A stretch of 64,000 nucleotides of DNA from Kiritimatiellia bacterium (GTDB lineage: Bacteria; Verrucomicrobiota; Kiritimatiellia; RFP12; UBA1067): contig JBMNFY010000008.1 of the NCBI GenBank assembly GCA_050949565.1, forward strand, positions 320,001-384,000, in the 5' to 3' direction. The first letter of the stretch is position 1. Each line of letters begins with the position of its first letter. Position numbers and translations under genes: made by a program. Of the stretch, positions 4,674-58,880 are shown piece after piece. The notes below the pieces were generated by a model that was not told the DNA's origin, searched no databases, and was given only the letters and a program-made list of their open reading frames with translations.

Positions 4674-4705
4674 GTTCAGATTATCCGACTCTGCCGACGT
4701 AGCAA

Positions 4706-5147
4706 CTAATGCGGGCAAAGCCCGCAACCCAATTCAACCTCACACAAAGGCACAAAGGCCACAACGTTTCCCATTTTTGCGCACCACCCAGATGCCACCC
4801 TCCACTCTTGCCATCGGGCTTGCGAAGCGCAGGGAGGGGCAAGCGTCTGCTTGCCCGCGGACGAGCGACGCTCGTCCCTCCCATCCTTCCGCACAGCGGA
4901 AGGCGGCTCGTGGGGACACTCGCCCTCCAACCTTCGCGCCTTCGCGTGAAACAGCAGAGCAGTGCTTTTACTCTCACGATTGCGAGCCACTGCGTGGCCG
5001 CAATAAGGGAAGTTGACTCGCGACCCGCGACTTGCGACTTGCGGCCAGCCCTGCCCCCAAAAAAATCTGCGTAATCTGTGTCCATCTGTGGATAAAAAAA
5101 ACCGAGCAGTGTTCTCAGAAACCCTTAGTGCCCTTCGTGTCTTACCT
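4706..5147. repeat. Mosaic of intergenic repeat modules (REP-like palindromes, triplet motifs, CCGAGCA linker)
   Basis: 4706-4732 matches 37445-37471; 4832-4882 is the reverse complement of 57321-57374; ATCTG triplet at 5065-5093 followed by CCGAGCAGTG at 5102. Confidence 0.8.
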
Positions 5148-52178: not shown

Positions 52179-52549
52179 GACATGATTAACATGATTATTG
52201 TGCCGTGCGCGGCGTGGCGGCGAAATCTGGAGTGCGGTGACAAGAGCCGCGCTGTGCGCGGGTCGCGGCACCGCTTTCTCTCCGCGCCGTGCGCGGGCAC
52301 ACTGTCGAATACACTTAGTCGCCACACCTAGTGCTTTGTTTCATTTGTACAGCGACACTAAAGGGCATGGCTACGGTAATAATTGATTCGCATTAGTTTG
52401 TCTGGGAGCACGCTGTTCCCAAAAAACCTCCGTGTTCTCTGTGCCTCTGTGAGAGAAAAAAGCCGAGCCATGCTCCCAAAAATCCTTCGTGCCCTTCGTG
52501 CCTTTGTGTGAGAAAAAACAGAGCAGTACCCCCTGTCACTGACCGATTA
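52179..52549. repeat. Composite repeat region between convergent genes
   Basis: GACATGATT module plus GGAGTGCGG REP (52179-52277); triplet-linker array at 52390-52549 ending in the inverted boundary motif. Confidence 0.8.
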
Positions 52550-55033: not shown

Positions 55034-56329
55034 GTGATGACGACCTTTTACCTTCAAAACGTGCGGATTCTGGATCACGCGCGCAACCGCGATGAAATCG
55101 CCGATCTTTACGTGCGCGACGGGATGATCGTCGCCTGCTCCGCTCCCCCCGCAGACGTGCCGCGCATCAATGCCGACGGCCTGCTGGTCGCGCCGGGCTT
55201 CTGGGATGTCCATGTCCATTTCCGCGATCCGGGTGCCCCCGCCGCCGAAACGCGCCGCACCGGTGCGGCCGCAGCTGCGGCCGGCGGATTCACGCGGGTC
55301 GTGACCATGCCCAATACCATGCCCGCTGGCGACACGCCCGCCTGGGTACGTGAGCAGATTGAGGACGACCTGCCGGTCCGGATTCTGCCTTCCGCCTGTA
55401 TTACTCAGGGTCGGCAGGGACGTGAAATCGCCGACCTCGATGCCCTCGCCGCCGCCGGTGCCGCCGCCTTTACCGATGACGGCGCAATGGTCGCCGACGA
55501 TGCGGTCATGCGCGAAGCGATGACGCGCGCCAAGCGGCTCGGCAAGCCGATCATGGATCATGCGGTCGTACCGGCGATTGCCAAAAACGGCGTGATCCGT
55601 GACAGTACGATTGCGCGTCAATTGGGGCTGCCGCTCTTCCCGCCCGAAGCCGAGGTCGAGGCCGTGCTGCGCGATATCCGGCTCTGCCGCGAAACCCGTT
55701 GCGCCACGCACATCCAGCACGTCTCGTGCGCCGATTCGGTGGCGGCCATCCGCGCCGCGCGTGCTGAGGGCTTGCCGGTCACCGGTGAAGCCTCGCCCCA
55801 CCACCTTGCAATCGCCGCCGACGATATCCCTGGCGATGACGGCAACTACCGCATGAATCCGCCGCTCGGTAACCATGAGGACGTACGCGCTCTCCGCGAC
55901 GGCGTGCTGGACGGCACGCTCAGCCTCTTCGCCACCGACCACGCGCCGCACACCGCCGCGACCAAAACCCGCGGCTTCCTCAAAGCCGCGTTCGGTGTCA
56001 TCGGCCTCGAAACTGCGATTGGCGTCACGTGGGAAATCATGGTTCTCCAAGAGAGCCTCTCCCCACTGACGTGGGTTGCCCGCTGGACTACCGGCCCCGC
56101 CGCGTTGCTAGGTTGCCCCGCGCCTTCCCTCGCGCCCGGCGTGCTCGCGGATCTCGTGGTGATCGACCCGCGAACGCCATGGCGCGTGACGCCCGACACC
56201 TTCCGCTCGCTCTCGCGTAACACACCGTTCGGCGGCTGGACGCTACACGCCCGACCGGTGCTGACGGTCTGCGAGGGCCGCATCACGTTCACGGACCCGA
56301 AAACCATCACTCTGGAGGAACCCGCATGA
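55034..56329 (+). CDS. pyrC: Dihydroorotase (type I)
   Basis: PGFWDVHVHFRDPG, MPNT, FTDDG, HIQHVS, EASPHH, MNPPL, ATDHAPH, SRNTPF. Confidence 0.93.
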   Translation: MMTTFYLQNVRILDHARNRDEIADLYVRDGMIVACSAPPADVPRINADGLLVAPGFWDVHVHFRDPGAPAAETRRTGAAAAAAGGFTRVVTMPNTMPAGDTPAWVREQIEDDLPVRILPSACITQGRQGREIADLDALAAAGAAAFTDDGAMVADDAVMREAMTRAKRLGKPIMDHAVVPAIAKNGVIRDSTIARQLGLPLFPPEAEVEAVLRDIRLCRETRCATHIQHVSCADSVAAIRAARAEGLPVTGEASPHHLAIAADDIPGDDGNYRMNPPLGNHEDVRALRDGVLDGTLSLFATDHAPHTAATKTRGFLKAAFGVIGLETAIGVTWEIMVLQESLSPLTWVARWTTGPAALLGCPAPSLAPGVLADLVVIDPRTPWRVTPDTFRSLSRNTPFGGWTLHARPVLTVCEGRITFTDPKTITLEEPA

Positions 56330-57150
56330 CCCCTGACTTTTTCGAAACCGCCGCCGCCGCGCTGCCTGATATCTGCCGCGAACCGCCGCCGGATTGCGGC
56401 ATGATCCTCGGCTCCGGTTGGAGCAAAGCACTGGCCGTTGACGCGCCGCTGTTGCGCCTGCCCTACAGTGAGATTCCGGGGCTCGGTGCCAGCACGGTCG
56501 TCGGCCACGCCGGCGAGTTCCTGCTTTTCGACCGCCACGGATTGCGCATCGCGGCCTTTATGGGCCGCCGTCACTGGTATGAGGGCGCGGGTTGGGGACC
56601 GGTCGTGATGCCCGTTGAACTGTTGCGCCGCTTGGGCACCCGCAACCTGCTAATCACCAACGCCGCAGGCAGCATCACGCCCTCGTTCACCCCCGGCGAC
56701 CTGATGATCATCCGTGACCACATCAATACGGTCGGCATTTCGCCGCTCATCGGACCGGTCATGCCCGGCTGGGGACCGCGCTTTCCGGATCAATCGCAAA
56801 TCTACTCACCCGCGCTCATCGACCTGCTGCGCAAAGCCGCGCACGATGCCGGCACGGCTCTTCGCGAGGGCGTCTATGCCTTCACCTCTGGTCCCGTCTA
56901 TGAAACCCCGGCCGAGATCCGCGCTTATGCCGGCATGGGCGCCGATGCCGTCGGTATGTCCACCGTGCCCGAAGCCACGGTCGCGAACGCCGCTGGCCTG
57001 CGTACCGCCGGCCTGAGTTGCATCACCAACATGGCGGCCGGCATCAGCGGCCCGAACCTGTCGCATGAAGGGGTGATCGAACAGACCCGCAAGACATTGC
57101 CGCTCATGGCGGCGCTGCTCGACGCATTTTTGATGCATCTCGCTCAGTAA
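56326..57150 (+). CDS. punA: Purine nucleoside phosphorylase (trimeric type)
   Basis: ILGSG, GHAG, GRRHWYEG, TNAAG, DHIN, GPVYETPAE, VGMSTVPE, SCITN. Confidence 0.93.
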   Translation: MTPDFFETAAAALPDICREPPPDCGMILGSGWSKALAVDAPLLRLPYSEIPGLGASTVVGHAGEFLLFDRHGLRIAAFMGRRHWYEGAGWGPVVMPVELLRRLGTRNLLITNAAGSITPSFTPGDLMIIRDHINTVGISPLIGPVMPGWGPRFPDQSQIYSPALIDLLRKAAHDAGTALREGVYAFTSGPVYETPAEIRAYAGMGADAVGMSTVPEATVANAAGLRTAGLSCITNMAAGISGPNLSHEGVIEQTRKTLPLMAALLDAFLMHLAQ

Positions 57151-57701
57151 TCGGTTAGTGACAGGGATGTGCGAAGATCATGCGTTTTTGGAGAAAAGGA
57201 GAGCCGAGAGTCGGGAGCGCGGGCGTCCTCGCCCGCAACAACGTGTCTTGCGATTTCTGTTTTATCCGCAGATTTGCGCAGATTGCGCAGATTTTCTCTT
57301 TTTTGTTTTTGACCGTAGGAGGGGAGAGACGAGCGTCTGCTCGTCCGCGGGCAAGCAGACGCTTGCCCCTCCCCGCCGAAGCGACCTCTTCGAAATCATG
57401 TCAAAAATGAAACCAGTTCTTAACCATGAAACAAACCCGAGCAATGCCATCTCCAAAAAAAATCTGTGTCCATCTGCGTCCATCTGTGGTTAAAAAACCG
57501 AGCACGGTCTTTTCGTGTATTCCGTGTGTTTCGTGGTTAAACAAACCCGAGCAATGCCCCCAAAAAACCTTGGCGATCTTAGCGTCTTGGCGGTTCCAAA
57601 AACCGAGCAATGCGCCCCCAAAAACCTCTGTGCTCTCTGTGTCCTCTGTGGTTAAACGAATCCGAGCAATGCCAACTCCTAAATCCTAACTTCTAACTCC
57701 T
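57148..57701. repeat. Composite repeat region containing a linker-triplet array (five CCGAGCA linkers)
   Basis: Boundary motif 57148-57166; palindromes at 57213 and 57321-57374; CCGAGCA at 57437, 57498, 57547, 57603, 57662; heptamer tract 57674-57701. Confidence 0.9.
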
Positions 57702-58880
57702 ATGTTCCCTCATCCTACCCCAGCTTTCGTCGTTGATGCCGCCGCCCTCGAACGCAACCTCGCCATCTTGGGCGAAGTCAAACGCCGTACCGGCTGCCGC
57801 ATCCTGCTTGCGCTGAAAGCCTTTTCGATGTTCAGCGTCTTTCCCCGTATGCGGCGCGTGTTGGACGGCTGTTGCGCCAGCTCGGTGTATGAAGCGCGCC
57901 TCGCCCGCGAGACCTTCGGCGGCGAGGTCCACGCTTTCGCCGCCGCTTTCTCTGAAACCGAAATGCGCGAGATCGTGACGCTGGCCGACCATGTGACGCT
58001 CAACTCCTTCGCGCAGTTCCGCCTGTTCCAGCGTGTCGTAGCCGAAAGCGGACGCGATGTCGTCTGCGGTCTGCGCATCAATCCGGAACACTCCGAAGGC
58101 GCGGCCGAAATCTATGACCCCTGTGCGCCGCGTTCGCGTTTAGGCGTGCGCCGCGCGGCCTTTGACGGCGAAACGTTGCACGGCGTGACCGGGTTGCACT
58201 CGCACACCCTGTGCGAACAGAATGCCGCGCCGTTCGTACGCACGTTGGCCGCGATCGAAAAACGCTTCGGCGACCTGTTGCCGCGTCTCTCCTGGATCAA
58301 TTTCGGCGGCGGTCACCACATCACGCGGTCTGACTACGATCTTGATCTGCTGTGCGACACACTCAACGCATTCCGTACGCGCCATCCGAATATCGAAACC
58401 ATCTACCTCGAACCCGGCGAGGCCTGCGCCCTCAACGCCGGCACGCTCGTGGCGACCGTGCTGGATGTGGTGGACAACGACATGTCCATCGCCATTCTCG
58501 ACGCCTCGTGTGCCTGTCACATGCCGGACGTGCTGGAGATGCCGTACCGTCCCCGTGTCTTCCGCGACGCCGCCTGGAGCGGTCAGGCCAGCCCCGGCCC
58601 GGAAGCCGACATCGGCTGTGACCCCGGTGTCAAGGCCCACACCGTACGGCTTGCGGGCGCCACCTGCCTCGCAGGCGACATCATCGGCGATTGGTCGTTC
58701 GACACGCCGCTTCAGACTGGCGACCGCGTGATCTTCGAAGACATGGCGCACTACACAATGGTCAAGACCAACACCTTCAACGGCATCCGCCTTCCCTCGA
58801 TCATGTTACGCGAGCCTGACGGCACCCTGCACACCGTACGCACCTTCGGTTACGAAGACTTCAAAAACCGTCTGTCGTAA
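57702..58880 (+). CDS. nspC: Carboxynorspermidine/carboxyspermidine decarboxylase
   Basis: TPAFVVD, LLALKAFS, ASSVYEA, LRINP, YDPCAPRSRLG, HTLCEQ, NFGGGHHIT, EPGE, HMPDVLEMPY, CLAGD, YTMVKTNTFNG. Confidence 0.95.
   Translation: MFPHPTPAFVVDAAALERNLAILGEVKRRTGCRILLALKAFSMFSVFPRMRRVLDGCCASSVYEARLARETFGGEVHAFAAAFSETEMREIVTLADHVTLNSFAQFRLFQRVVAESGRDVVCGLRINPEHSEGAAEIYDPCAPRSRLGVRRAAFDGETLHGVTGLHSHTLCEQNAAPFVRTLAAIEKRFGDLLPRLSWINFGGGHHITRSDYDLDLLCDTLNAFRTRHPNIETIYLEPGEACALNAGTLVATVLDVVDNDMSIAILDASCACHMPDVLEMPYRPRVFRDAAWSGQASPGPEADIGCDPGVKAHTVRLAGATCLAGDIIGDWSFDTPLQTGDRVIFEDMAHYTMVKTNTFNGIRLPSIMLREPDGTLHTVRTFGYEDFKNRLS

What the first reader, a model, noticed from the sequence alone, without database searches (positions are those of the whole stretch)
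57437..57701. CRISPR-like array of constant linkers separating different internally triplicated motifs
Seen: CCGAGCA(ATGC) linkers at 57437, 57498, 57547, 57603 and 57662 (spacing 61, 49, 56, 59), mostly flanked by A-runs. Each spacer is a different motif repeated three times and ending in GGTT: ATCTGTGTCC/ATCTGCGTCC/ATCTGTGGTT; TTTCGTGTA/TTCCGTGTG/TTTCGTGGTT; CTTGGCGAT/CTTAGCGT/CTTGGCGGTT; CTCTGTGCT/CTCTGTGTC/CTCTGTGGTT. A heptamer tract follows the fifth linker, and an inverted CGCAGATT triplet lies at 57266-57293. Shorter versions occur at 5065-5140 and 52417-52530. No cas or integrase gene is in the window. Inference: an ordered store of interchangeable recombination or protein-binding sites (near one helical turn per unit), possibly scars of an integron-like cassette system. 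From memory, similar triplets flank GxxExxY and four-helix-bundle genes in other bacteria; this is unverified.
Basis: partly seen in the sequence, partly recalled or inferred. Interest (0 to 1): 0.85.

Follow-up and report, generated by a model that had tools for sequence, protein, structure and literature searches.

The report
Mosaic intergenic repeat array, not CRISPR
This stretch is one locus of a genome-wide family of short, modular, non-coding repeats in a Lentisphaerota bacterium; it resembles the mosaic repeat arrays of Neisseria more than a CRISPR or integron store, and its function is still unknown.

Summary
There are five CCGAGCA junctions at 57437, 57498, 57547, 57603 and 57662. Between them lie four units, each holding a different 8-10-bp word repeated three times.

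It is not a private array. A profile built from such units finds 481 units (E<=1e-3) in 193 of 3011 intergenic regions of the 4.66-Mb genome. The words fall into a few recurring classes. One exact 30-mer occurs in 32 different intergenic regions. Each window unit is closer to copies elsewhere (88-93%) than to its neighbours (56-71%).

Relatives with about 96% identical flanks carry one unit here instead of four, and more distant relatives carry none. Other orthologous sites show gain, loss or replacement of units.

Neither strand of the array folds better than shuffled sequence. The genome's true CRISPR arrays use other, palindromic repeats beside Cas1. An integron integrase exists, but it is unlinked and does not track the junction.

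Verdict: this is a dispersed mosaic repeat family with NIME-like architecture. Its three-fold words co-vary within a unit, which is unusual. Function and spreading mechanism are inferred, not shown.

The parts
56326..57150 (+). punA (purine-nucleoside phosphorylase), the upstream flank
   Evidence: NCBIfam NF006054 scores 293 bits (cut-off 218) and Pfam PF01048 matches. In G000 the stop codon lies at the start of the inserted repeat; in G002 and G004 the frame runs on for about 10 more codons.
57147..57251 (+). Left part of a composite dispersed element of about 230 bp, with the hairpin GCGGGCG-TCCT-CGCCCGC
   Evidence: There are many BLAST copies in G000 and in same-genus genomes (query 822-926). 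Seven G000 copies were aligned.
57260..57296 (-). Junction-less ATCTGCG-class triplet module in inverted orientation, lying inside the composite element
   Evidence: TRF row 57267-57294. Complete in 5 of the 7 aligned copies of the composite, partial in one and missing in one. It is 79% complementary to unit 1 over 24 nt (I2).
57318..57377 (+). Nested-hairpin element forming the right part of the composite
   Evidence: Inverted repeat I1, 30-nt arms, 80% complementary. Dispersed copies at 92-96% identity occur in several genera (query 997-1048).
57395..57436 (-). Degenerate CATGAAAC-type module (reverse complement of the TTTCATG/TTTCGTG class) preceding junction 1
   Evidence: Read from the sequence. 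It is 88% complementary to unit 2 over 17 nt (I3). The same word class is seen at other loci.
57437..57508 (+). Junction 1 (CCGAGCAATGC), then unit 1: C/A runs, 3x ATCTG(T/C)G word at 57462-57491, A run, and junction 2 (variant CCGAGCACGGT, 57498-57508)
   Evidence: The best copy elsewhere is 89.6% identical over 48 nt at C8:235414-235460.
57509..57557 (+). Unit 2: 3x TT(T/C)CGTG word at 57511-57538, A-rich tail, and junction 3 (57547-57557)
   Evidence: It has 110 short-BLAST hits in the genome, the best 92.3% identical over 39 nt.
57558..57613 (+). Unit 3: C run, A run, 3x CTT(G/A)GCG word at 57569-57595, and junction 4 (57603-57613)
   Evidence: It has 26 hits, the best 93.5% identical over 46 nt at C8:20196-20241.
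57614..57672 (+). Unit 4: C run, A run, 3x CTCTGTG word at 57626-57653, and junction 5 (57662-57672). This is the only unit shared with G002 and G004.
   Evidence: It has 58 hits, the best 91-93% identical over 54-58 nt.
57673..57701 (+). Heptamer tract (AACTCCT-like, 4 copies) abutting the nspC start codon
   Evidence: TRF row 57674-57702. G002 and G004 have a longer tract, about 6 copies by my reading. There are 108 such tracts genome-wide, and only 9 end within 10 nt of a predicted start codon.
57702..58880 (+). nspC (carboxynorspermidine decarboxylase), the downstream flank
   Evidence: NCBIfam TIGR01047 scores 482.9 bits (cut-off 409). Pfam PF00278 matches.
5056..5146 (+). Second locus of the family in the window: an ATCTG(C/T)G unit, a junction (CCGAGCAGTG) and a CTT(A/C)GTG unit
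   Evidence: The locus is conserved in G004 at 92.4% identity, while an adjacent 337-bp composite repeat (window 4677-5013) is absent there (L114).
52417..52530 (+). Third locus in the window: a CTC(C/T)GTG unit, a variant junction (CCGAGCCATGC), a CCTTCGTG unit and a degenerate junction
   Evidence: TRF row 52484-52502.

Best explanation
The segment 57437-57701 is one locus of a dispersed, non-coding, modular repeat family that fills the intergenic DNA of this Lentisphaerota genome.

Anatomy of a unit (about 50-60 bp): a C run, an A run, three tandem 8-10-bp copies of a pyrimidine-rich word ending in G-Y-G, an A-rich tail and, in this lineage, an 11-bp junction CCGAGCA(A/G)TGC. The words belong to about eight discrete classes, and each class recurs at many loci. 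Arrays are same-orientation mosaics of classes.

What is shown:
- The family is genome-wide.
- Units are copied as whole modules.
- Arrays are gained, lost and replaced between genomes that are 92-98% identical in the flanks.
- Large arrays are tandem amplifications of unit pairs.
- Neither strand of the array forms structure.

What is inferred: units spread and are shuffled by recombination or template switching at the shared junction and the A/C runs, with unequal crossing-over enlarging arrays. The three words stay alike because a unit is inherited as a block and is homogenised over short range. At this locus the array is spacer DNA, probably inside the nspC leader, and not an information store.

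In architecture it works like the intergenic mosaic elements of Neisseria (a constant short repeat separating many families of variable repeats). It is not a CRISPR array or an integron cassette array.
For: Genome-wide family:
- nhmmer with a profile of 29 seed units gives 481 hits at E<=1e-3 (319 at 1e-5). Of these, 35 lie in predicted coding sequence.
- The hits form 339 clusters, and none mixes strands.
- 193 of 3011 intergenic regions hold at least one unit.

Discrete recurring classes: CTCTGCG 203, CTCTGTG 71, CTTCGTG 35, CTTCGCG 33, ATCTGTG 26, CTTGGCG 18, minor classes 20, unclassed 75, out of 481.

Copy-paste signature:
- One exact 30-mer occurs in 32 intergenic regions.
- 150 of 209 regions share an exact 30-mer with another region. 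Contigs C14, C16 and C18, which look like duplicates, were dropped before this count.

Window units: the nearest copies elsewhere are 88-93% identical, against 56-71% between neighbours.

Fixed three-fold design:
- Among intergenic period-9 arrays, 441 of 574 have 2.5-3.4 copies and only 20 of 574 have 4 or more. Heptamer arrays spread from 2 to 7 or more copies.
- All three words agree in their four class-defining bases in 263 of 400 units, against a mean of 86 (maximum 108) in 1000 shuffles. For units whose first word does not begin with CTCT the figures are 81 of 161 against 7.7.

Turnover:
- In the punA-nspC interval, G002 and G004 (flanks 96% identical) hold only unit 4. G001, G006, G018, G009 and G007 hold none.
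- Of 20 junction-bearing G004 loci, 10 have the junction inside one long alignment to G000. One of these is a chance coding match, one is a non-orthologous repeat hit, and one (L115) has the junction conserved with a 393-bp block of extra units beside it in G000. Five lie between collinear alignments whose gaps differ by 112-412 bp. Three map to split places and two were left unplaced. The alignments show units swapped on either side of a shared junction.

Large arrays are higher-order repeats of unit pairs.

No structure: the RNA fold z-score is +0.65 on the + strand and +1.36 on the - strand. Rfam gives nothing above 26 bits.

The same four-unit array stands unchanged in contigs of two independent DNA metagenomes: pieces 57347-57538 and 57531-58880 have 0 other letters.
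Against: - No enzyme, target-site duplication or donor locus was found, so the spreading mechanism is inference only.
- The strong co-variation of the three words and the fixed copy number could instead reflect selection for a function, such as binding of an oligomeric protein. My reading does not explain that possibility away.
- Orientation is not random. In co-directional intergenic regions 73 are antisense and 37 sense to the genes (p=8e-4). Ninety-three of 146 have the C-rich strand on the lagging-strand side by GC skew (p=0.001). Convergent regions are enriched (48 of 404, against 26 of 423 divergent). This hints at some constraint.
- The counts rest on my own crude ORF-based gene map (3032 genes, 84.5% coding).
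- The profile is biased towards the CTCTGCG class, so it under-detects TTCCGTG, TTTCATG and junction-less units.
- Several contigs look like near-duplicates (C12/C16, C14/C15, C5/C18), which inflates the unit counts somewhat.
Confidence: 0.8

Rival explanations
1. CRISPR-like or integron-like store. The junctions would be repeats or attachment sites of a dedicated acquisition system, and the units would be stored cassettes or spacers.
For: - Constant junctions separate different inserts at regular spacing of 49-61 bp.
- Array content differs between close relatives.
- Several unit tails read GTTAAAC. From recall, this fits the integron core-site consensus GTTRRRY.
- The genome does encode an IntI-type integrase (358.6 bits against a cut-off of 265) and Cas1.
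Against: - The inserts are not unique. Each window unit has 10-110 hits elsewhere, counting its own place, and exact 30-mers are shared by up to 32 regions.
- Only 7-11 bp are constant, and there is no hairpin.
- The genuine CRISPR arrays of this genome have other repeats of 33 and 29 nt. One of them (C8:398837-403345) lies next to a Cas1 hit.
- The integrase is on another contig, and no unit lies between C17:743278 and C17:754633 around it.
- IntI is present both in junction-positive genomes (G004, G092) and in junction-negative ones (G001, G007, G014; partial in G006).
- Units of about 55 bp carry no ORF.
Confidence: 0.03
2. Protein-binding arrays on DNA. Each unit would be a three-site array for an oligomeric or cooperative DNA-binding protein, with the word classes served by different paralogues. 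The dispersed copies would form a regulon or a nucleoid-organising set.
For: - Copy number is fixed near three.
- The three words co-vary strongly (263 of 400 against 86 expected).
- The word classes are discrete.
- CTCTG(C/T)G triplets followed by an A run also occur without the junction in other genomes of the genus and family (G001, G003, G007, G092), so the triplet is older than the junction.
- ATCTGTG-class units end in a word that is the reverse complement of the recalled DnaA-box 9-mer. Eleven of 53 genomic TTATCCACA words lie next to units.
Against: - No cognate protein was identified.
- Units occur in every intergenic context and in both orientations.
- They are gained and lost between genomes with about 96% identical flanks.
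- Arrays amplify to 19-43 units with no obvious relation to the neighbouring genes.
- A 9-bp spacing is off the helical repeat.
Confidence: 0.12
3. RNA-level element. The C-rich, G-poor, unstructured units would act in transcripts, for example as Rho-loading (rut-like) tracts or as leader or trailer spacers that affect termination or stability.
For: - Units are 32.6% C against 18.8% G on the sense strand.
- They fold no better than shuffles.
- The unit length of about 55-60 nt is close to the recalled footprint of a Rho hexamer.
- Units are modestly enriched near gene 3' ends and in convergent regions.
- An 811-nt contig from an RNA library spans 57512-58322, that is array plus nspC.
Against: - The C-rich strand is antisense to the flanking genes twice as often as sense (73 against 37).
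- Contigs from an RNA library do not prove transcription, as the tool itself warns.
- No transcript ends could be mapped because only contigs were available.
- No promoter-like site was found, and the two terminator-like sites do not exceed the shuffle expectation.
Confidence: 0.1
4. An ordinary local tandem repeat of about 57 bp that has decayed, or a small repetitive ORF (57426-57689, 87 aa).
For: - TRF reports a period-57 row with 72% matches.
- An ATG-started ORF spans the array.
Against: - Neighbouring units are 56-71% identical, while each has copies 88-93% identical elsewhere.
- The unit lengths of 61, 49, 56 and 59 are not multiples of three, so no peptide repeat is kept.
- My codon-usage gene map did not select the ORF.
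- G002 and G004 lack three of the four units.
Confidence: 0.02

Closest known systems
Neisserial intergenic mosaic elements (NIMEs: dRS3 repeats flanking RS elements)
   Same: In both, a short constant repeat separates many families of variable repeat units of 50-150 bp. Units cluster into long intergenic arrays, sometimes with other repeats and IS elements inserted. Array positions are broadly syntenic but content varies. (Passages read in PMC1797815.) Here an 11-bp junction separates about eight word classes in same-orientation arrays, content varies between relatives, and an IS110-family transposase gene abuts one large array.
   Different: - dRS3 is a 20-bp repeat with 6-bp terminal inverted repeats. 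Here the junction has at most a GCA-N-TGC mini-palindrome and nothing folds.
- RS elements are not described as internally triplicated. Here every unit is a triple of one word.
- The phylum is different.
- For Neisseria a cognate ssDNA nuclease of the GIY-YIG family is now known (passages read in PMC11893778). The only GIY-YIG hit here lies in a 507-aa open frame, much longer than the 94-aa single-domain Ssn.
- The 2007 paper states that NIME arrays had not been observed outside Neisseria.
REP / BIME elements of enterobacteria and pseudomonads
   Same: Both are abundant intergenic repeats arranged in composite mosaic structures. Both are found preferentially after genes, and neither encodes a protein. 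(Abstract of PMC2817692 seen in the listing.)
   Different: - REPs are imperfect palindromes, and in BIMEs they alternate in orientation (same abstract). Here units are non-palindromic and all point the same way within a cluster (0 of 339 clusters mixed).
- Y1-transposase-like genes exist here (7 hits to PF01797, 5 above the Pfam cut-off). Of the four places checked, the best-scoring one and one other have no unit within 2.5 kb, and two lower-scoring hits do have units nearby.
- A separate hairpin element in this genome (...TTGCGAGCCACTGCGTGGTCGCAA...), often attached to CTTCGCG units, is the more REP-like component.
Cyanobacterial short tandemly repeated repetitive (STRR) sequences
   Same: Both are short-period, usually 7-bp, tandem repeats scattered through intergenic DNA with unknown function (passage read in PMC2670836). 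This genome has 637, 509 and 574 intergenic arrays of period 7, 8 and 9, including the heptamer tract at 57673-57701.
   Different: The phylum and the motifs differ. The 8-9-bp triplets here are embedded in a larger conserved unit with a junction and are fixed at about three copies.
CRISPR arrays
   Same: Both show a regular alternation of constant and variable segments with a period near 60 bp.
   Different: The variable segments here are multi-copy. The constant part is only 7-11 bp and is not palindromic. No cas genes are adjacent. The genome's real CRISPR arrays look entirely different.

Membership tests
CRISPR array | Near-identical direct repeats of about 23-50 bp separated by unique spacers | tested here: not met
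   Only 7-11 bp are constant. Each 'spacer' has 10-110 hits in the genome, counting its own place, and exact 30-mers occur in up to 32 regions.
CRISPR array | Adjacent cas genes, or at least repeats shared with a cas-linked array | tested here: not met
   Cas1 hits lie at C8:396817-397683 and C6:210034-210645, outside the window. The array next to the C8 hit uses a 33-nt palindromic repeat, and a second array on C10 uses a 29-nt repeat.
Integron cassette array (attC sites) | Integron integrase with attI next to the array | tested here: not met
   The only hit above the cut-off to TIGR02249 is at C17:750483-751412, on another contig. No unit lies between C17:743278 and C17:754633. Its presence in relatives does not follow the junction.
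Integron cassette array (attC sites) | attC: an imperfect inverted repeat that folds as a single-strand hairpin, bounding a promoterless ORF | tested here: not met
   Fold z-scores are +0.65 and +1.36, that is no better than shuffles. Units of about 55 bp hold no ORF. A GTTAAAC tail fits the recalled core-site consensus in some units only.
NIME (Neisseria) | dRS3 repeat ATTCCC-N8-GGGAAT flanking RS elements | tested here: not met
   The junction is CCGAGCA(A/G)TGC, so there is no dRS3 sequence. The architecture is analogous, but this is not membership.
NIME (Neisseria) | Arrays of a constant repeat separating many families of variable units, intergenic, with content variable between strains | tested here: met
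REP/BIME | Palindromic 20-40-bp REP units in alternating orientation | tested here: not met
   No hairpin forms, and 0 of 339 clusters mix strands.
REP/BIME | Cognate RAYT (Y1 transposase) flanked by the repeats | tested here: inconclusive
   There are seven PF01797 hits, five above the Pfam cut-off. Four places were checked: the best one (C8:242526-243581) and one other have no unit within 2.5 kb, and two lower-scoring hits do have units nearby. No systematic test was done.
Ssn nuclease / NTS-type repeat pair | Small single-domain GIY-YIG nuclease gene in the genome | tested here: not met
   There is one GIY-YIG hit only, in a 507-aa open frame. Ssn proteins are described as single-domain and about 94 aa (passage).
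MITE | Terminal inverted repeats and target-site duplication | tested here: not met
   Units have no inverted termini. No duplication is visible at the variable junctions aligned.
STRR-type short tandem repeats | Tandem repeats of about 7 bp scattered through intergenic DNA | tested here: met
   Arrays of period 7/8/9 number 902/690/1075, against 126/164/140 in an order-3 Markov shuffle. Of these, 1720 of 2667 lie in the 15.6% of the genome that is intergenic. The motif sequences are not those of the cyanobacterial STRRs.

The most novel reading that the evidence does not exclude
These arrays could be the visible product of a dedicated, still unidentified recombination system in Lentisphaerota, a NIME-like system outside Neisseria. 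In that reading the GCA(A/G)TG-containing junction is the nicking or crossover site. Whole units of three co-varying 9-mers are exchanged between loci. The word classes are arrays read by distinct oligomeric DNA- or RNA-binding proteins, so that shuffling units rewires what sits next to a gene.

Three observations leave room for this. The distribution of the junction is patchy: G000 has 51 matches, G092 (another genus) 30, G004 22 and G002 7, with 0-1 in the other 119 genomes of the order sample, in G001, G003 and G006, and in the congener of G092. The copy number is fixed at three. The three words co-vary.
Probability: 0.1. Interest if true: 0.8.

Novelty: new variant of a known kind. Interest (0 to 1): 0.45.

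Why it matters
Mosaic arrays built from a constant short junction and interchangeable repeat families have been treated as a peculiarity of Neisseria; the 2007 comparison states they had not been seen elsewhere. Finding the same architecture in an uncultured anaerobic-digester Lentisphaerota lineage suggests that it arises repeatedly. It also offers a second system in which to ask how such arrays spread and whether they matter to neighbouring genes.

The design here is different, with no palindromes and with units made of three co-varying words. The near-fixed three-fold design is not explained by simple slippage, and it is a concrete handle for finding a binding protein or an enzyme.

There is also a practical consequence. 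About 1,700 short tandem arrays in 0.73 Mb of intergenic DNA break short-read assemblies of these organisms: contigs end at the repeats. They can also mislead CRISPR-like pattern searches, as happened here.

Tried and rejected
- Rfam scan of 56900-57900: only weak chance matches to miRNA and Cyano-2 models over the hairpin element, none over the array.
- Promoter and terminator scan: 0 promoter-like sites and 2 terminator-like sites, which is not above the shuffle expectation.
- Replication- or gene-linked orientation: modest biases only. An earlier per-cluster count was inflated by large tandem arrays and was replaced by the per-region count.
Among neighbouring same-class TRF arrays, 87 are direct and 23 inverted. 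Twenty genes have units on both sides against about 12.5 expected, and the ten I annotated have no common function: oxidoreductases, a BNR protein, an O-antigen ligase, a PD-(D/E)XK protein, an AAA protein, IS110 and rve transposases.
- IS110 transposase as mobiliser or as a clue to the target site: only two identical copies exist, on two contigs that look like duplicates, so no target rule could be drawn.
- Restriction-site idea: GCAATG and GCAGTG (recalled as BsrDI and BtsI sites) are neither avoided nor enriched genome-wide (1150 and 1283 against 1037 and 1219 in the shuffle).
- DnaA-box idea: only 11 of 53 TTATCCACA words lie at units.
- Heptamer tract as a general pre-start-codon signal: only 9 of 108 tracts end within 10 nt of a predicted start.
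- Read laying: a joint that skips 57553-57615 (one unit) appears in two DNA runs but with only 21 letters on the short side. The tool flags such joints as unreliable, and it may come from another locus. Parts without cover and depth peaks over the repeats are not used as evidence. Only contigs were available, so transcript ends, strand and level could not be read.
- Literature: searches for Victivallis + intergenic + tandem repeats and Lentisphaerae + repetitive elements + intergenic listed no paper describing these repeats. I saw listings only for those. This does not show that the repeats are unpublished. Supplementary files were not opened.
- TRF density control on loci of relatives: the same-genus loci had been chosen for their repeats, so only the comparison with 74 loci of other phyla is usable (0.23 arrays per kb against 0.57 in G000).
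Full report
**What is there.** The word CCGAGCA starts at 57437, 57498, 57547, 57603 and 57662. Four copies extend to CCGAGCAATGC; the second is CCGAGCACGGT. Between the junctions lie four units. Three of them begin with a C run and an A run, while unit 2 starts directly after its junction. All four hold three tandem copies of an 8-10-bp word, followed by an A-rich tail. The words are ATCTG(T/C)G (57462-57491), TT(T/C)CGTG (57511-57538), CTT(G/A)GCG (57569-57595) and CTCTGTG (57626-57653). Tandem Repeats Finder lists three of the four triplets (not the CTTGGCG one). It also lists a weak period-57 row (72% matches), a heptamer tract at 57674-57702 that runs into the next gene's ATG, and the inverted CGCAGATT triplet at 57267-57294. 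The flanking genes are a purine-nucleoside phosphorylase (56326-57150; NF006054, 293 bits) and carboxynorspermidine decarboxylase (57702-58880; TIGR01047, 483 bits). The shorter versions at 5065-5140 and 52417-52530 are real.

**The organism.** The window is C8:320001-384000 of a 4.66-Mb, 21-contig, 60% G+C genome. The closest named relatives of its nspC are uncultured Lentisphaeraceae MAGs at 81% identity. Near-identical DNA occurs in contigs of sludge, landfill, bioreactor and biogas-fermenter metagenomes.

**It is a genome-wide family, not a private array.** CCGAGCAATGC occurs 40 times against about 2 expected. Listing the contexts of CGAGCA[AG]TG (159 hits) shows the same architecture at dozens of intergenic sites, with the same few word classes in different orders. 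A profile HMM built from 29 seed units finds 481 units at E<=1e-3, of which 35 lie in predicted coding sequence. The units fall into 339 clusters, none of which mixes strands. On my own crude gene map (3032 genes, 84.5% coding), 193 of 3011 intergenic regions carry at least one unit. Most units fall into six classes: CTCTGCG 203, CTCTGTG 71, CTTCGTG 35, CTTCGCG 33, ATCTGTG 26 and CTTGGCG 18. Seventy-five are unclassed. The profile favours the CTCTGCG class and under-detects TTCCGTG, TTTCATG and junction-less units. Some contigs look like near-duplicates (C12/C16, C14/C15, C5/C18), so the counts are approximate.

**The wider background.** This genome's intergenic DNA is saturated with short tandem repeats. 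TRF at a low threshold gives 902, 690 and 1075 arrays of period 7, 8 and 9, against 126, 164 and 140 in an order-3 Markov shuffle, with no excess at period 10. Of these 2667 arrays, 1720 lie in the 729 kb (15.6%) that is intergenic. Loci from 74 genomes of other phyla give 0.23 such arrays per kb, against 0.57 for this genome as a whole.

**Units are copied as whole modules.** Each window unit has closer relatives elsewhere in the genome (88-93% over 39-58 nt) than among its neighbours (56-71%). So the array is not a decayed local tandem repeat. With the duplicate-looking contigs dropped, one exact 30-mer of the CTCTGCG unit occurs in 32 different intergenic regions, and 150 of 209 regions share an exact 30-mer with another region. 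The largest arrays (12-43 units) are higher-order tandem repeats of unit pairs, for example [CTTGGCG + CTCTGCG] x 6. The window array, with four different classes, is a mosaic and not an amplification.

**The three-fold word is a fixed design and its copies co-vary.** Intergenic period-9 arrays sit at 2.5-3.4 copies in 441 of 574 cases, and only 20 have four or more. Heptamer arrays spread from 2 to more than 7 copies, like ordinary microsatellites. In 263 of 400 units with three recognisable words, all three agree in the four class-defining bases. When the words are dealt out among units, the mean is 86 and the maximum 108 in 1000 shuffles. For units whose first word does not begin with CTCT the figures are 81 of 161 against 7.7. 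This is the most unusual feature. Block inheritance plus short-range homogenisation can produce it, and so can selection for three like sites. I cannot tell these apart.

**Comparison across relatives.** punA and nspC are adjacent in several genomes of the genus and family. G002 and G004, whose flanks are 96% identical to the window, have a short interval. It holds a different 9-mer repeat (GGCTGTGAG x about 4), a degenerate junction, only the last unit (CTCTGTG class) with its junction, and a longer heptamer tract. G001, G006, G018, G009 and G007 have no unit there. G003's locus is cut by a contig end, and in G016 the two genes lie on different contigs. The roughly 450 bp that are extra in the window consist of two parts. 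The first is a composite dispersed element of about 230 bp (57147-57376). It has at least seven G000 copies and itself contains an inverted, junction-less ATCTGCG module, complete in 5 of the 7 aligned copies. The second part is a degenerate CATGAAAC-type module followed by units 1-3. The insertion also supplies punA's stop codon in this genome.

**A broader sample of orthologous sites.** I fetched 20 junction-bearing loci of G004 and mapped them on G000.
- In 10 the junction lies inside one long alignment. One of these is a chance match in coding sequence and one a non-orthologous repeat hit. In another (L115) the junction is conserved but a 393-bp block of extra units lies beside it in G000.
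- 5 lie between collinear alignments whose gaps differ by 112-412 bp.
- 3 have flanks that map to separate places.
- 2 were left unplaced.

The alignments show units added, removed or replaced by units of another class, with the junction as the only shared island. The four-unit array itself is stable within the population. Contigs from two independent DNA metagenomes match 57347-57538 and 57531-58880 without a difference.

**Distribution.** The pattern AAMCCGAGCARTGC occurs 51 times in G000, 22 in G004, 7 in G002 (56% complete) and 30 in G092, which belongs to another genus of the family. It occurs 0-1 times in the other 119 genomes of the order sample and not at all in G001, G003 and G006; the order sample includes G007, the congener of G092. 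CTCTG(C/T)G triplets followed by an A run do occur without the junction in G001, G003, G007 and G092. G003 even has an array of period about 43 built from them. So the triplet module is older and wider than the junction, which is a patchy, lineage-specific addition. MAG fragmentation may hide repeats, so the absences are 'not found'.

**Tests of the CRISPR and integron readings.** Neither strand of the array folds better than shuffles (z +0.65 and +1.36), and Rfam finds nothing on it. The genome has Cas1 genes and genuine CRISPR arrays with 33-nt and 29-nt palindromic repeats and non-repeated spacers, at C8:398837-403345 and C10:242-3081. These are quite unlike the units. An integron-type integrase is present (C17:750483-751412, 358.6 bits, cut-off 265). 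However, no unit lies between C17:743278 and C17:754633, and the sequence upstream looks AT-richer and unrelated. The integrase also occurs both in junction-positive (G004, G092) and in junction-negative genomes (G001, G007, G014; partial in G006). The only GIY-YIG hit lies in a 507-aa open frame, much longer than an Ssn-type nuclease. Y1-transposase-like genes exist (7 hits, 5 above the Pfam cut-off). Of the four places checked, the best-scoring one and one other have no unit within 2.5 kb.

**Position and orientation.** Units occur in all intergenic contexts. In co-directional regions they are antisense to the genes in 73 cases and sense in 37 (p=8e-4). Forty-eight lie in convergent and 26 in divergent regions, and 9 regions mix orientations. 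By GC skew the C-rich strand is on the lagging side in 93 of 146 regions (p=0.001). Units are C-rich and G-poor (32.6% against 18.8%). These are modest biases. They may reflect compositional skew, a preference for gene 3' ends as in REP elements, or a function in RNA. The window array is in the minority sense orientation. One contig from an RNA library runs from 57512 into nspC (to 58322), a weak hint that the 3' part of the array belongs to the nspC leader. Only contigs were available, so no transcript ends could be read.

**Comparison with known systems.**
- *NIMEs.* The closest architecture is the neisserial intergenic mosaic element: 20-bp dRS3 repeats flanking over 100 families of 50-150-bp RS elements, clustered into arrays that may also hold other repeats and IS elements. 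They are proposed to promote recombination, and in 2007 were said not to be known outside Neisseria (passages of PMC1797815). A subset of dRS3 is now known to be the target of a small GIY-YIG single-strand nuclease (passages of PMC11893778). The present family shares the architecture and the turnover. It does not share the sequence, the palindromic junction, the nuclease or the phylum, and it adds the internally triplicated unit.
- *REP/BIME.* These elements share abundance and mosaicism but are palindromic and alternate in orientation (abstract of PMC2817692).
- *STRRs.* The cyanobacterial STRR heptamers (passage of PMC2670836) resemble the background of 7-9-bp arrays.
- *Literature.* My two searches for a description of such repeats in Lentisphaerae or Victivallis listed nothing relevant. 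That is not proof of absence, and supplements were closed.

**Verdict.** The CRISPR/integron interpretation is rejected, and the 'interchangeable modules' part is upheld. The array is one locus of a dispersed mosaic repeat family, a new variant of a known kind. How the units spread, why each holds three co-varying words and whether they do anything for the cell remain inferred or open.

Noticed in passing
G000:C8:396817-403345 (outside the window, from 12.8 kb beyond its end): A Cas1 gene (347 bits) is followed by a genuine CRISPR array with a 33-nt palindromic repeat and a period of about 66-67 bp. A second array with a 29-nt repeat lies at G000:C10:242-3081.
   Followed up: partly
G000:C17:749934-751415: An integron-type integrase (TIGR02249, 358.6 bits against a cut-off of 265). 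The upstream sequence looks AT-richer and foreign. Homologues occur in G001, G004, G007, G014 and G092. No cassette array or attC sites were defined.
   Followed up: partly
window 57147-57376: A composite dispersed element of about 230 bp with two hairpin parts (GCGGGCG-TCCT-CGCCCGC and a nested 30-nt inverted repeat at 57318-57377). At least seven G000 copies were aligned. Its parts occur at 80-96% identity in several genera of the family.
   Followed up: partly
window 57141-57150 compared with L082/L083: The repeat insertion supplies punA's stop codon in this genome. In G002 and G004 the reading frame continues for about 10 more codons into a GGCTGTGAG repeat, so the protein's C-terminus differs between close relatives.
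   Followed up: no
window 4950-5010; also G000:C17:124633, C17:1315777, C10:154008 and L005:463-620: A REP-like hairpin element (...CTTTTAC...TTGCGAGCCACTGCGTGGTCGCAATAAG) regularly follows the junction after CTTCGCG-class units. It also occurs in a Lentisphaerae MAG whose nspC is only 68% identical.
   Followed up: no
window 57673-57701; L082, L083: The heptamer tract directly before the nspC ATG has 4 copies here and about 6 in G002 and G004 by my reading. No purine-rich Shine-Dalgarno-type word is visible before the start codon. Genome-wide there are 108 such tracts, and only 9 abut a predicted start codon.
   Followed up: partly
G000:C5:10920-12251 and C18:22259-23590: An IS110-family transposase gene (PF02371, PF01548) directly abuts a large [ATCTGTG + CTTCGTG] array, with an rve-type transposase gene nearby. 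The two copies are 100% identical on contigs that look like duplicates.
   Followed up: partly
G000:C17:389610-389690, C17:1113644-1113690, C17:960271: Tandem copies of another repeat of about 39 bp (GGAGGGCGAGTGTCC(C/T)CACGAGCCGCC...CGAGCAATG) that shares the CGAGCAATG word with the junction. Its reverse complement precedes many CTTCGCG units.
   Followed up: no
G000:C17:1380456-1382762: A 20-copy array of period 114 in which two TTCCGTG-class triplets face each other as an inverted pair. This is an exception to the same-orientation rule and could form a long hairpin.
   Followed up: no
G000 contigs C12/C16, C14/C15, C5/C18: Stretches of these contig pairs are identical or nearly so: the same contexts, double hits, and 100% identity over 2.3 kb. 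This suggests assembly duplicates or haplotypes, and the repeat counts are slightly inflated by it.
   Followed up: no
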